Source: Octopus vulgaris
Taxonomy: Eukaryota
Direction of reading: 5' to 3'
Length of the DNA: 64,000 bases
Assembly (NCBI GenBank): GCA_951406725.2
Contig: OX597814.1
Span: 65,100,001 to 65,164,000, forward strand
A program made the translations under genes and the position numbers. Within the stretch, counting starts at the first letter, position 1, and each line of letters begins with the position of its first letter. Below the pieces are notes generated by a model. It worked only from the letters and a program-made list of their open reading frames with translations, made no database searches and had not been told where the DNA came from. Below are positions 9,194 through 64,000 of the stretch, one piece after another.

Positions 9194-9254
9194 AATAAAA
9201 CTCCGAGTTTCGGGTATCGGGGCGGAAACCTGCAACGGTATCTCTTCAGTTATC
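9194..9254 (-). ncRNA. Putative type I hammerhead ribozyme motif (Penelope-like)
   Basis: Minus strand: GATAA-CTGAAGA-(stem II, poorly paired)-GAAA-CTCGGAG-TT-TTATT. Stem I is GATAA/TTATT, stem III is near-palindromic, cleavage triplet GUU. Confidence 0.55.
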
Positions 9255-9410
9255 GAGGCAATTAAAATATGCTATGAAAATGAACGTTTGACAAAAGGAA
9301 ATTATTATGTAAATGACCGCTATTAAGACAAAAGTGCTAATAGAATGACCGTTAAATAAGGGAAAAAACCGAAGGGGAGGAAGTAAAAAATAAAGGAGTA
9401 AGAAAACTCA

Positions 9411-10012
9411 TAGCAATGCGTGTGCGCGCATGTACATACATACTCATGCGTACACGAGTATATAACTACATACATATATATTATATTTGTTCCACGTCCT
9501 CGCGTTGTTGTGTTTTCTCTTTGTGTTTTCATGTTTGGATTAACTTTATATATGTATATATATATATATATATATATATATATATATATATATATATATA
9601 TGCGCGTATTTGTCCGTACGATGTGCGCGCGCCTGCGTATTTAAGTTAATATGTAAGCACATATTGCACACTCAACATATCTCAATGATTGAAACCGGTA
9701 CAAAATTTTTCATGATAAAATTACTTCAACATTTCTACCTTGATTTATCTTCCTTATATATATATATATATATATATATCTGAGCGCCATACTAATACAA
9801 TTGTTCGTTTGTTTTCCACCTGCCTTCGTCTTTTGTTTATTTTCATAAAGCTTCCCGTTATATATATATATATATATATATACATATATAAAGTTAACAC
9901 AAAGAGAAAACACAACAACGCGAGGACGTGGAACAAATATAATATATATGTATGTAGTTATATACTCGTGTACGCATGAGTATGTATGTACATGCGCGCA
10001 CACGCATTGCTA
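9411..10012. repeat. Inverted repeat, ~130-bp arms (9411-9555 and 9881-10012)
   Basis: TAGCAATGCGTGTGCGCGCATG...TTCCACGTCCTCGCGTTGTTGTG and its reverse complement; identical apart from a ~13-bp indel, each arm ending at a (TA)n tract. Confidence 0.9.
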
Positions 10013-11179
10013 TGTGCGCGCATGAATATATATATGTATATATATATGTATATATATACATATGTATATATGTATGTATACATATGCACATATACACATA
10101 TGTTTATGCGTATGTTTATATGTATATATATATATGTGTGTGTATCTATGTATATATATATATATATATATATATATATATATATATATATGTATATATA
10201 TATATATATACATACATATATACGTGTGAACATGTGTGTATGCATATGTGCTTACGTATTAACTTATGTGCTCAAGCGCTTGGACATAGTGCGGACAAAT
10301 ACACGCATGCACATACATTGCTTTGAAACTATTACTTTAAGACATTACTTAAAGAACAATGTAATTTCATGAGGTAAATCATTAGAGTGAACATGTTTGG
10401 ATATTTTAAATACTGCAAGAGATATTAAGACAAGATATGGCATAGTAATATGAGTCACTAGTACAAAGTATGTAAAGTTTTACAGTATTTGGGAGAAAAA
10501 TTGTTTTCTGTTAATTATTAATTTTAACATAGTAATAAAATTTCATTTTAGTAACTATATTTTTTATTTTTTTTAACATAAGGATGAAGCATAGCAAAAG
10601 ACATCTCAATAGTTTGGATGCAGAAATTTTGTGAGAAACAGTATTTCAAAATCAAATATATTTATCCAAAATATTTAATTCCCATATGTGTACATATTTT
10701 ATGTAGTAATAAACCCGCTAAGAACGGTTAATTCTGCTAGTGTATATTTACATGTCATTGCGTATTCATGCGCGCACATTTTACTGTCCTAGTCAGGTAA
10801 GGTCAACAAAATGTACTCCATCCAGTGAGAGGTAAATGTCACTTAATGTACACTGTATTAAGAGCTACTAATAGTTTCTTGCTATTGAGATACGTGGTGA
10901 GGCAGGTGTTTACGTGTTTTGAGGCCTTGTTTCTCCAATATATTTCCGGTTCTGTTCGTCTAAATGTTTTTTTTTGTTTTTGAAAATAAAGACGCTGTTA
11001 CGTGACGAACAACGAGAAGGTTGATACATATACCAGTTTCATGAAAACATGCATTCAGAGCCTGAAGATTATTTGGAGAGAAATGACGACCTCGCTCGTT
11101 ACAAAATTCTCCCCAACTACGTGTCTTAACAGCAAGAAACTATTCGTAGATCTTACCTTAATATAGCGTCATGAAATTA

Positions 11180-11740
11180 CAAAGCCTTGTGAGTGGATTC
11201 GGTAGATGGAAACTGAAAAAGCCCATCGCAACATTACATACATACATACATACATACATACATACATACATACATACATACATACATACTTACATATATA
11301 TATATATAGTTCAAATTTACAGTAAACCAAAGACGACGGCAAGTGTAGGAACAACAAGCAGGTGTATTAGTTTAACGCTCGCGAAGACTGGAAACGTATT
11401 TGACGTTTCTAGCTTACGCTCTTCGTCGGAAAGGATTAAGAGCTAAAAACCTGGGTGAGGATGAAAAATTAACCGAAAGAAAAAAAAATATGTAGAGATT
11501 GACGGATCATGATGAAATGTGTGTGTGTGTGCGTTTGTGTCTTTGTTTGACATCCGAGGTTGGCATGTTTACATACCCTGTAACGTAGTGGTTTCGCCCC
11601 CCCCCAAAAAAAAAGACTCGATAGAGTAAGTACTAGTCTTATAAACAATATGTCCTGTAGTCAATTTATTCGACAGAAACCCTTTAAAGTAGTGCTCTAG
11701 CATGGCTGCATTCAAATGAATGAAACAAGTGAAAGAGTAA
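11180..11740 (+). mobile_element. SINE family A split by a Penelope-like short element
   Basis: SINE middle (AAAGCCTTGTGAGTGGATT) at 11181 and SINE tail at 11520-11740, with unrelated sequence inside the internal microsatellite. Confidence 0.7.
11305..11490 (-). mobile_element. Short Penelope-like terminal-repeat element with hammerhead-like core
   Basis: Minus strand CTTT-CCGACGA-A-GAGCGTAAGCTA-GAAACGTC-AAA, then CGAGCGTTAAACTAATACACC...GTCTTTGG running into (TA)n. Confidence 0.6.
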
Positions 11741-60665: not shown

Positions 60666-61619
60666 ACATATACATATATATGTACATACATATAATATAT
60701 ATACGTACATATACATACATACATACATACATACATACATATATATATATATATATATATATATATATATATATATATTAATAAAAGAAATAAAACATAT
60801 GCATATATATATAAACATATATGTACGTACCTACCTCTACATGTACATATACACGCATATATGAGTACAAGACACCAAAGGGACGTCGAACACATAGAGA
60901 AACGAAAACATAGACACAAACCAAAGGAACAGGACATTTTTTTTAAAAACAAAAAAAAATGGAGTACAGGACAGTTAACACAATGAAAAAACCCCTTCTT
61001 CACTCGCTAAGGTTTCATCTACTCTACGTTTCGAAGGATAAAAGCGAGACGTATCTTCGACAAGAAACTTTCCTTCCTGCGAAAAGCAAATCAATTAAAA
61101 TTCTGAGATCTTTTCGCAGAGGGGTAAAAAATGGTAAAAAAATGGTAAAAAAACGAGACAGTAACGACAGTACAAAAATATAAACAGTAAAAAAAATATA
61201 TATATAAACAGTAAAAAATATATATATAACAGTAAAAGACAGGACAGGGAGAACAAGATAAGAAGGGCTGTTGACGCCGAACGAAAAAAGTATTGCAAAC
61301 GCTGAATTTTTTGTGACAACGAAGAGCAGGAAAAGTCGTCCAGTAGCCTTAAAAGGCGGGCGAGAAAGACCGTTAGCAGTTACGGCGGAAGTATCGTCGC
61401 AGATGGACGACGGGAATGAGGGAGGAGGAGCAAGAGGAAGGGAGAGAAGAAGGGGAAAGGTGCGAGGAGACCATGAAGAATGGTGAGGGGGAGAGAGAGA
61501 ATGAAGAATGAGAGAGAGAGAGAGAGAGAGGAAGAGACAAGTTAAGTGAGGGAAAAAAGACGAAAAGGGGATGGGATAGAAAGAAAGAAAGAAAGAAAGG
61601 GCAGAGTGCGCGTGCCGTC

Positions 61620-61804
61620 ATATATATATATATATAAACGACGGTCTTCTTTCAGTTTCTGTCTAGCAACTCCACTCATAAGGCTTTGGTTGGTCCGAGG
61701 CTATAGTAGAAGACAGATGTCCAAGTTTTCACACAACGGAACTGAACCCGGTCCCGTGTGCTTGGGAAACAAATTTCTTACTACACCGCCACACTCACGC
61801 CTAT
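61620..61804 (-). mobile_element. SINE family A, 5' half
   Basis: CTTTCAGTTTCTGTCTA...CCGAGGCTATAGTAGAAGACA...ACTGAACCCGG. Confidence 0.75.
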
Positions 61805-63844
61805 GCATATGATTATGTATGTTTGTATGTATGTATGTATGTATGTATGTATGCATGCATGTATGCATACAATGGATGTCCACCCGTGCCGGAAGAAAAC
61901 CATTATTGATCATTGTTCATCTAAAATGCCAGCTATGACTGCGCATGTATTCTTCTGGGTTTGCGTTCGCAGCACCCATGCTCACTGGGTGCTTTCCTAT
62001 ATGAAAGAATATCGTATTGACGCCTTGCGATTGCACAAGCTAAAGTTTTGAGCCCAATAAAGATCCCAGATCCTTTCCAGCCTCCTGACATTCCCGCCAG
62101 GGCAAGATAACCAGAGCCAATGCGGTTCGAAGGCTAAGGAATGTGGAGGCACCCTGATCTAAAGTGCAAGCAAAAGATACCTCAAATGTTCAATGCTATT
62201 CGCAGTATATCTCATTTGATATCAGTGATTTTCTCTTAGAAACAAGTTTTAAATGCTAAGGGTTGCCTTACACCCAGTGGTCTTCGAGCATGCCGGACAC
62301 CAACCTATAATATCGGAGGGCCTTTGCTATCGCTAGATAGTCGTTGAACCCACACTATGTTCATCTCTCACTTGTAAGGTCTCTCAAGTGTCGGGTCGAC
62401 GGTGAGCAACAAATTCAGCACTGTTCAAAAATATTTCAGGTTTGATGCTCCTATCTTTTCATAGAAATATAGTTCAGTGTGTCCTTCGATTTTTAAAGTT
62501 GATTTGAAGATTTCGCTGATATTTTTAGGAAGTAGCACAGTCGTGTAGTAACTCATTCGTTAACCGTAGTGCTGAAATATTCCACTTAGATATACTAGTA
62601 TAGATCTCGACAGATTTCTTGGAAGAGAATTGTGTGGCTTGAAAAATTAATTGCTATTTTAAAATTTAATATTTATATCATATAAATGGGCATGTTGCCC
62701 ATATAAAATTGCTTGGCTTAAAACTTGCAGTCTGATATCATATATAATACGATGAGGGTGGCTTTGAGAATTTAGTTACCTATATATGATTTTTTTCTCT
62801 TCAATTACTGAGGGGAATGTCGTTGTTAGGAGTAATAGAGAGAGCAATCTTTTTTTTTCTTTTCTTTGACTTATACTTTTGTCTAAAAATCACCAATTAT
62901 TTAAAACTTATTTCAACTGAACCGCATTCAATGAGAGGAAATCTAACCGAGTAGGTAGTCCATAGAATACACGTGAGAAAACAGAAACAATCATGGAAAT
63001 GACACCTTTGCTTGGAAAGTATTTTACACGTAATTTAACTTCTGCTTTCTGAAGTATACATTATATCCGAAGCTGTTTTCAAAGAAAGAAAACTCACTAC
63101 CACACACATAGAAACAAGTCATACACTCACACAGAGATACACATACATACAGAAACAGTCATGTTAAATATACACACACGAAAACAAACACAGCGGTCTC
63201 TTTAGAGGAGACAGGGAATTCTATGGTGGTATATGTAGGCTTCTATATCTCAGTAAGTATGACGTAGGTGAATACACACACACACATTAGATAATATGTA
63301 GGCAGAACAGGGCTTATACATACAATTTTGCATACAAAGAAGTACACATACGTACACAAGAATACATGTGCACCTAGGAATGCATATATGTATGTGTATA
63401 AAATATAAGACATTTTCTTCGAATGAATATATCAATCTATCTATATATGTATATACATATATATATTATATATGGTTGTGTATTTTTATACATACATATA
63501 TACACACACACATATCTATCTATCTATCTATCTATCTATCTATCTATCTATCTATCTATCTATCTATCTATCTATCTATCTATCTATCTATATATATATA
63601 TATATATATATATATATATATATATATATCATTCCGTGTGTTCAGAAAAGTGTATATACGAATAGTCACCCTGTATATGTTCTGAAATGAAACACGATAA
63701 TACATACATACATACATGCATATACACACACATATATATATATATATATATATATACACATACATATATGTGTGTGGTTGAAATGTAACCACATGTGGAT
63801 CGATGGCGATTTTTTCCTCCTTCTTCCCTATCTCTCTGTCTGCT

Positions 63845-63879
63845 GTTTCTGAAGAAGAGCTTTGTTCGAAACGTAAAAC
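63845..63879 (+). ncRNA. Minimal hammerhead motif in a Penelope-like terminal repeat ending at (TA)n 63986
   Basis: GTTT-CTGAAGA-A-GAGC(TTT)GTTC-GAAACGTA-AAAC; stem I GTTT/AAAC, canonical core, GUA site. Confidence 0.7.
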
Positions 63880-64000
63880 TACCTTTCTTTCCTTCCCTGA
63901 GCGTCTGCTAATACTTTGCACATACCACGCACTCGCGTTGTTGTTTTTTCTTTTGTATTTTCTTCGTTTTTCTTTTAGATTAACTATATATATATATACA

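What the first reader, a model, noticed from the sequence alone, without database searches (positions are those of the whole stretch)
9194..63990. Dense system of ORF-less, hammerhead-carrying Penelope-like elements docked on (TA)n tracts
Seen: about a dozen hammerhead or hammerhead-like motifs in 64 kb (9194-, 11400-, 15152+, 21800-, 21971+, 29112-, 29571+, 35775-, 36037+, 39732+, 40498+, 60561+, 63845+), in at least five sequence-distinct families. Nearly all lie in 150-500-bp non-coding units ending in (TA)n, often as inverted pairs. Established: Penelope-like elements carry minimal type I hammerheads in their pseudo-LTRs, can insert with an inverted partial 5' repeat, and mobilise non-autonomous retrozyme-like RNAs. 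Inference: these are several non-autonomous, self-cleaving, microsatellite-targeted retroelement families, or extreme 5' truncations, that use TA tracts as landing sites. I cannot tell whether they are already described for this genome.
Basis: partly seen in the sequence, partly recalled or inferred. Interest (0 to 1): 0.8.

Follow-up and report, generated by a model that had tools for sequence, protein, structure and literature searches.

The report
Truncated Penelope tails with hammerhead motifs
This octopus-like DNA holds 16 hammerhead-ribozyme-shaped motifs whose units mostly end at TA repeats; they are likely the cut-off tail ends of Penelope-like jumping genes, a pattern already in print, and only two altered core letters in the commonest family look unusual.

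Summary
All 13 listed sites hold a type I hammerhead-like motif and I found three more. Six of the 16 pass a strict descriptor (0.06 per shuffle). TA docking is directional: 10 of 13 downstream, 3 of 13 upstream, background 18%. The largest family (A: 8 motif copies, 5 motif-less stubs) has a fixed 3' end at TA, ragged 5' ends and read depth that falls steeply 5'-ward. Same-family copies are never in head-to-tail arrays; three pairs are head-to-head. That fits 5'-truncated Penelope-like element (PLE) ends better than retrozymes. No parent RT/GIY-YIG ORF could be linked, so autonomy is unproven. Each trait is in print: minimal hammerheads as singles and opposite-strand pairs (PMC4209133); (TA)n-targeted, hammerhead-bearing Hydra PLEs, including one in Octopus bimaculoides (PMC8557442). 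Family B matches an O. bimaculoides gene model. What is left over: family A amplified with changed core letters (A6U, U4C), and relatives of family B occur elsewhere as 129-nt tandem units. The scan reached the same reading earlier on other DNA (e1-7882047). Verdict: real, mostly ordinary; new members of a known kind.

The parts
11309..11467 (-). Family A copy; core CCGACGA (U4C), 3' end at TA 11294-11308
35694..35844 (-). Family A copy (A6U), left arm of a head-to-head pair; ends at short TATATAT
36004..36158 (+). Family A copy (A6U, decayed GAAA), right arm; (TC)n 35886-35996 between the arms; ends in TA-rich tract
39682..39836 (+). Family A copy (A6U), TA on both sides
39854..40630 (+). Longest family A copy (U4C, C3 at 40502); about 650 nt of repeated, ORF-less 5' sequence; TA on both sides
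51259..51397 (-).
60480..60660 (+). Family A copy (A6U), TA on both sides
63790..63984 (+). Family A copy with canonical CUGAAGA core and intact stems I and II; ends at TA
8579..8650 (+). Family A 3' stub without the motif, ends at TA
9478..9544 (+). Family A 3' stub without the motif, ends at TA
9781..9858 (+). Family A 3' stub without the motif, flush between two TA tracts
9883..9945 (-). Family A stub inside a 119-nt, 100% identical local inverted duplication of 9409-9527
50362..50430 (+). Family A 3' stub without the motif, starting at a TA tract
29066..29201 (-). Family B copy, minimal hammerhead with strict core (C3 29151), ends at TA
29392..29661 (+). Family B right arm: B-box-like GTTCGATTC at 29395, (AAT)n, decayed motif at 29575; no TA at its end
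21743..21903 (-). Family C left arm; strict core, long stem II, palindromic stem III; ends at (TA)n
21952..22112 (+). Family C right arm, 159 of 161 identical to the left arm; same end point, no TA there (next TA at 22259)
15055..15313 (+). Unit D (5' limit uncertain); best-formed motif (C3 15157, stems 5/6/2 bp); ends at TA 15314
14822..15054 (.). Head-to-head pair H (14822-14899 -, about 14905-15054 +) without an intact motif; 14913-14947 resembles 15245-15279 (28 of 35)
9165..9408 (-). Unit E (limits uncertain); strict core at 9249, stem III ACUC-G-GAGU as in Hydra-clade motifs, stem II broken; ends in a compound (AC)n/(TA)n tract
28629..28679 (-). Motif F (new): strict core, 14-nt palindromic stem III, weak stem II; not near TA
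190..232 (+). Motif G (new): strict core, decayed stems
59952..60215 (.). Head-to-head pair of the same build, left arm on TA, no hammerhead found

Best explanation
The units end at a fixed point about 50-140 nt past a hammerhead-shaped motif, mostly at a TA tract, and vary at their other end; they are likely heavily 5'-truncated copies of several Penelope-like retroelements, in which only the 3' pseudo-LTR with its hammerhead was copied. Inferred mechanism: the element's GIY-YIG endonuclease nicks a (TA)n tract, its reverse transcriptase starts at a fixed internal site of the RNA just downstream of the hammerhead and usually stops early. Sometimes a second truncated copy is laid down in the opposite direction, giving a head-to-head pair. 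The motifs are then passengers. Minimal ones would cleave only as dimers or with protein help, and partners on opposite strands could not supply that, so most copies here are predicted to be inactive. Shown: motifs, fixed 3' ends, ragged 5' ends, TA adjacency, pairs, high repetition. Inferred from the literature: enzyme steps, parent elements, inactivity.
For: Fixed 3' end at TA in family A. Five stubs that start 3' of the motif. TA on both sides of 39737+, 39854-40630+, 60566+, 63849+, 9781+ and, weakly, 50362+, so the tract was likely there first. Summed contig depth in run X1 falls from 2.1-2.3 million at the motif to 34k, 26k, 8k, 3k, 2k going 5', with about 30 at a locus-specific spot (not a copy number). 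Both arms of 5 of 5 head-to-head pairs examined stop at the same homologous base. Majority letters at 39766/39767 (87% and 94% in X1) restore 4 of 4 pairs in stem I. Match to the published minimal consensus, with the extra base between 9 and 10.1, G10.1-C11.1 and a palindromic 15.2-16.2. Hydra-clade PLEs target (TA)n, carry the motif near the 3' end and can have an inverted truncated copy; one is from O. bimaculoides. Internal fixed RT start, AT-rich nicking and a dispensable hammerhead were shown in vitro for an anole PLE.
Against: No RT or GIY-YIG remnant in 300 of 317 candidate frames (Pfam). The longest copy has about 650 nt upstream with no ORF. The family B peptide found no RT-bearing relative. 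None of the tested window motifs matched an octopus sequence in the Craig 2021 supplement. Relatives of family B occur as 2-3 tandem 129-nt units (10 of 12 hits). The depth gradient is confounded by divergence of the reference copy, since depth also drops 15-25-fold on its 3' side. Covariation in the window is not significant.
Confidence: 0.7

Rival explanations
1. Some families (B and D first) are dedicated non-autonomous elements: short ORF-less RNAs, retrozyme-like or SINE-like, that cleave themselves in tandem transcripts and borrow a PLE protein; the window holds their solo copies.
For: 10 of 12 hits to the family B peptide are spurious ORFs made of 2-3 units spaced 42-43 aa, each spanning the motif. 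The B right arm begins with a B-box-like GTTCGATTC. D has a near-canonical motif and a 35-nt segment repeated 332 nt upstream (28 of 35; 0 of 979 control segments reach the score). No ORF found. Solo retrozyme monomers derived from PLE pseudo-LTRs are reported.
Against: No same-family same-strand repeat in the window. Unit ends do not coincide with the cleavage site. Family A stubs lack the motif. The tandem relatives are from unnamed records, not shown to be this species. Partial tandems are also normal for autonomous PLEs. A 9-letter B-box match is weak (11 such matches in the window); ARAGORN found no tRNA.
Confidence: 0.22
2. The inverted pairs are fold-back DNA elements (MITE-like) or template-switch or assembly duplications at self-complementary TA tracts, and the TA runs are tails made by the element rather than targets.
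For: Two near-perfect local inverted duplications next to TA exist (119 of 119 and 77 of 78); family C arms are 98.8% identical; mariner transposons are present.
Against: B, A and H arms differ by about 17% and the 59952 pair by 12%; the same family occurs as single copies; stubs sit flush between two TA tracts; arms end at the family's 3' end.
Confidence: 0.06
3. The motifs are chance matches in AT-rich, repeat-rich DNA.
For: Rfam finds nothing; none of the 9 motifs tested has the hammerhead fold as its lowest-energy state (gaps 2.2-12.7 kcal/mol); the loose descriptor separated poorly.
Against: 6 against 0.063 strict hits; 82.5% of cells paired against 20-47% for slid registers; variation concentrated at N7 and loop 2; stem I restored by majority letters.
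Confidence: 0.02

Closest known systems
Minimal type I hammerheads of metazoan PLEs (Cervera and De la Pena 2014, PMC4209133)
   Same: Families A and B: extra base between 9 and 10.1, G10.1-C11.1, CG palindrome in place of helix III, 4-bp helix I, U-rich lead-in; mostly single motifs, some opposite-strand pairs 100-700 bp apart, read by the authors as truncated PLEs.
   Different: Family A carries A6U or U4C in 6 of 8 copies (A6C in one more); the parts I read report only the U3-A8 core variant. No octopus example in the supplement file searched (file 1 not searchable).
Hydra-clade PLEs, including Hydra-1_Obim (Craig et al. 2021, PMC8557442)
   Same: (TA)n preference, hammerhead close to the 3' end, 3-4-bp palindromic stem III (E has the same ACUC-G-GAGU as Hydra-2_aMil), inverted truncated copy at the 5' end.
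   Different: The window's units are not Hydra-1_Obim; clade cannot be assigned without an ORF.
Poseidon element PAc of Anolis (Frangieh et al. 2024, PMC11167929)
   Same: Fixed internal RT start about 100 nt past the hammerhead, AT-rich target, optional tail at one end; family B also has an ATG in the motif core opening a short frame.
   Different: PAc has a full ORF and is not described as (TA)n-specific; nothing here was assayed.
Non-LTR retrozymes (PMC7229834; bioRxiv 10.64898/2026.07.22.740005)
   Same: Short, ORF-less, type I hammerhead, PLE-related; solo monomers exist.
   Different: Defined by head-to-tail repeats with mostly canonical motifs and circular RNAs; none in this window.

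Membership tests
Minimal type I hammerhead of PLEs | Core CUGANGA...GAAA...UH | tested here: met
   Strict core in 8 of 16 motifs, 6 of them with passing stems; not met in 7 of 8 family A copies (U4C, A6U, A6C) or in 29575+
Minimal type I hammerhead of PLEs | Extra base after A9, G10.1-C11.1, palindromic 15.2-16.2, helix I of about 4 bp | tested here: met
   Families A and B; stem I restored by majority letters at 39766-39767
Minimal type I hammerhead of PLEs | Compensatory changes in stems | tested here: inconclusive
   2 pairs with two-sided change in 8 copies; 44-70 of 500 shuffles as high
Minimal type I hammerhead of PLEs | Self-cleavage as dimer or with protein | not testable with these tools
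   Contig runs cannot show RNA ends
Penelope-like elements (EN+) | ORF with telomerase-like RT and GIY-YIG endonuclease | tested here: inconclusive
   Absent from the window, as expected for truncated copies; no whole genome held; protein searches found no link
Penelope-like elements (EN+) | Fixed 3' end, 5' truncation, hammerhead in the pseudo-LTR | tested here: met
   Family A
Penelope-like elements (EN+) | Inverted 5'-truncated copy abutting the 5' end | tested here: met
   Pairs A, B, C with motifs; H and 59952 without
Hydra clade of PLEs | (TA)n target and hammerhead with palindromic stem III near the 3' end | tested here: met
   E and C; F has the stem but no TA
Hydra clade of PLEs | RT phylogeny and Hydra-type endonuclease | not testable with these tools
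   No ORF available
Non-LTR retrozymes | Head-to-tail tandem units, one hammerhead each | tested here: not met
   No same-family tandem in the window; met only by relatives of B in unnamed records
Non-LTR retrozymes | Unit-length circular RNA | not testable with these tools
   Only contig runs were offered

The most novel reading that the evidence does not exclude
The most abundant hammerhead family here spread to very high copy number with changes at two supposedly invariant core positions (U4C in one subfamily, A6U in another) while keeping its stems. It is either a new protein-assisted or dimer-rescued hammerhead variant that standard CUGANGA descriptors miss, or natural proof that PLEs keep the fold as a protein-binding or RT-start signal after catalysis is lost; family B would in addition be a Pol III-driven, tandem-forming non-autonomous PLE derivative.
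Probability: 0.2. Interest if true: 0.55.

Novelty: new member of a known kind. Interest (0 to 1): 0.27.

Why it matters
As a pattern it is ordinary: the units cover about 4.1 kb, roughly 6% of the window (hand sum of the parts), close to the 6.83% PLE share reported for Octopus vulgaris (the window's species is not established). The part worth a bench day is family A. The role of the hammerhead in PLE transposition is open: core mutants did not block insertion in vitro. A very successful family with U4C or A6U cores, beside a sibling with a canonical core (63849+), is a ready natural comparison, and it shows that descriptor-based hammerhead counts in cephalopods would be too low.

Tried and rejected
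No whole genome is held, so no genome-wide descriptor search, consensus extension or empty-site test was possible. Rfam: whole window by E-value showed only microRNA-like microsatellite hits among the 150 of 280 rows shown; none at gathering score; no hammerhead family in two small regions. The repeat finder was swamped by microsatellites; masked blastn replaced it. The first pair count used a structure shifted by one column and was redone. A family A pattern found nothing in metagenome or viral contigs, a family B pattern nothing in metagenome contigs. No RNA holder was listed on record. Two runs guessed to be RNA have contigs that read through the predicted cleavage sites and show no joint there; contigs cannot show ends and may hold DNA, so this is no evidence on expression or cleavage. 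A search for longer proteins related to P0004 found none (weak). A guess that 39850-39930 is a decayed endonuclease C-terminus got no Pfam support and was dropped. An alternative register for family A (core starting three bases later) was rejected because its first two positions vary freely. Hits 35263- and 46166- from the descriptors were treated as chance (35263 lies at a mariner 5' end). The Lunse et al. paper on dimeric PLE hammerhead variants is not held; its variant list may already include U4C or A6U.
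Full report
Setting. The window is AT-rich animal DNA with 67 merged TA tracts, mariner transposase remnants and several dispersed repeats. No whole genome is held. A peptide read across the family B motif matches a gene model of Octopus bimaculoides, XP_052830334.1, at 88% over 25 residues, so family B is an octopus repeat. 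The window's species is not established.

Observation. All 13 listed sites hold a type I hammerhead-like motif, and three more lie at 195+, 28674- and 51381-. A descriptor following the published minimal consensus gives 6 hits against 0.063 (max 1) in 300 shuffles, and 9 against 0.35 (max 3) when one change at position 4 or 6 is allowed; thresholds were chosen after seeing the motifs, and a looser first version separated poorly. Eight of 16 motifs have a strict core and 6 also pass the stems. Rfam sees none. The misses are 21977+, 29575+ and 35806- (short TATATAT), each one arm of a pair.

Family A. Eight motif-bearing copies are 64-82% identical and share a 3' end at TA. Five further stubs begin 3' of the motif (one is part of a local duplication), and 9781-9858 sits flush between two TA tracts. 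In the 8-copy alignment C3, G5, G8, A9 and three U of stem I never vary, N7 and loop 2 vary most, 82.5% of cells pair against 20-47% for slid registers, but covariation is not significant. I laid contigs of four public runs on 39682-40640 (4 of 24 listed). In X1, summed depth is 2.1-2.3 million over the motif at 40482-40545, 34k, 26k, 8k, 3k and 2k in successive 5' bins, 79-143k on the 3' side and about 30 at a locus-specific spot; X6 is similar. The tool warns that this is no copy number, and divergence of the reference copy confounds it, but the stretch from 39854 on is repeated and far rarer than the motif end. This is a 5'-truncation profile. Majority letters at 39766 and 39767 (87% and 94% in X1) turn the broken stem I of that copy into 4 of 4 pairs.

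Core variants. Four copies read CUGUNGA (A6U), two CCGACGA (U4C), one A6C, one canonical. In one search no change of 15% or more back to U at 40503 or back to A at 39740 is listed in any of the four runs (the tallies of C>T and T>A are fully accounted for by shown rows). For U4C this is fair evidence, since a long exact stretch beside it would seed either allele. For A6U it is weaker, because seeding favours contigs like the reference (no variation is listed at N7 either), but four diverged window copies share it. The U4C subfamily also keeps a U-U mismatch in stem I. In passages of PMC3088659 a natural A6C core cleaves slowly and U4C lowers activity in vitro yet supports a viroid. I found no report of these changes in PLEs, but the Lunse et al. 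variant paper is not held (known to me only through the review and recall).

Other groups. B, C and the 35806/36042 copies of A are head-to-head pairs with motifs 424, 99 and 236 nt apart and arms 83%, 98.8% and 83% identical. Two more pairs (14822-15054, 59952-60215) have the same build without an intact motif. In all 5 pairs both arms stop at the same homologous base; in 4 of 5 only one arm meets a TA run, which fits insertion at a tract edge or the one-sided tail described for PLEs. C, E and F have longer palindromic stems III; E's equals that of Hydra-2_aMil. D is closest to canonical. None of 9 motifs folded has the hammerhead as its lowest-energy state. No two same-family motifs lie head-to-tail; the only same-strand neighbours within 1 kb are 39737+/40502+ and 28674-/29151-. 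Pfam found only mariner domains in 300 of 317 candidate frames.

Against the simple reading. No parent ORF was linked to any family. Ten of 12 hits to the family B peptide are spurious ORFs from unnamed records with 2-3 units spaced 42-43 residues, that is about 129-nt tandem units that each span the motif. The right arm of B starts with a B-box-like 9-mer (weak). D shares a 35-nt segment with sequence 332 nt upstream. These keep a retrozyme-like or SINE-like reading open for B and D.

Mechanism. Inferred from PMC11167929 (parts 1-2 of 4 read): a PLE protein nicks AT-rich DNA and starts reverse transcription at a fixed internal RNA site about 100 nt past the hammerhead; hammerhead mutants still insert, and cleavage needs the protein. 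Early termination would give exactly these units. Minimal motifs need a same-strand partner (PMC4209133), which opposite-strand arms cannot give, so most copies are predicted to be inactive passengers.

Known work. PMC4209133 (parts 1-2 of 4 and one supplement search; supplement file 1 not searchable) describes minimal motifs with the same features, mostly single, sometimes as opposite-strand pairs 100-700 bp apart, and ascribes them to truncated PLEs. PMC8557442 (passages, supplement searches and part 2 of 59) lists (TA)n-targeted Hydra PLEs with hammerheads near the 3' end, including Hydra-1_Obim, which is not in the window. PMC13282606 (part 1 of 3, supplement search) gives PLEs 6.83% of O. 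vulgaris in 190 families; the units here sum by hand to about 6% of the window. PMC7229834 (passages) and bioRxiv 10.64898/2026.07.22.740005 (part 1 of 5 and passages; supplements closed) define retrozymes by tandem units. PMC6962438 (passages) counts 235 Rfam hammerheads in giant squid. I found no paper on these particular families; Repbase and Dfam could not be searched and may well hold them.

Verdict. It is best read as truncated 3' ends of several TA-targeting Penelope-like families (0.70), with non-autonomous status possible for some (0.22). New members of a known kind; interest 0.27, carried mainly by the core variants of family A.

Noticed in passing
window 9409-9527 / 9896-10014 and 14658-14735 / 14822-14899: Two near-perfect local inverted duplications (119 of 119; 77 of 78) centred on TA tracts, the first including non-element flank; template switching at TA or an assembly artefact.
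   Followed up: partly
window 59952-60215: Head-to-head pair (88% identical arms, left arm on TA) with no hammerhead found; may be a motif-less PLE end or a fold-back element.
   Followed up: partly
window 29074-29145 (-) and 29581-29652 (+): An ATG inside the family B core opens a 24-25-codon frame kept in both arms and used as the start of an O. bimaculoides gene model (P0009), reminiscent of the ORF start overlapping the hammerhead in PAc.
   Followed up: partly
window 21954-21962 and 22042-22049: In family C a segment 5' of the motif is complementary to the cleavage-site palindrome and could sequester it in an alternative fold.
   Followed up: no
window 18182-18710: GC-richer 530-nt imperfect inverted repeat (70%) with an internal repetitive stretch, not TA-bounded, unexplained.
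   Followed up: no
window 24017-24746, 34099-35400, 43552-44404, 54078-55102: Mariner-type transposons or remnants (Pfam Transposase_1, HTH_48, DDE_3 for three; long terminal inverted repeats at 43552-44404).
   Followed up: partly
window 4692-5242, 15355-15655, 50518-50839, 57031-57366, 61638-61797: A dispersed repeat family whose 5' end abuts TA tracts at 15354 and 50840; SINE-like by recall only, not tested.
   Followed up: no
window 47079-47579 (-) and 48190-48851 (+): Open frames that look like a LINE RT C-terminus and a piggyBac-like remnant by recall; no Pfam hit at E 0.01.
   Followed up: no
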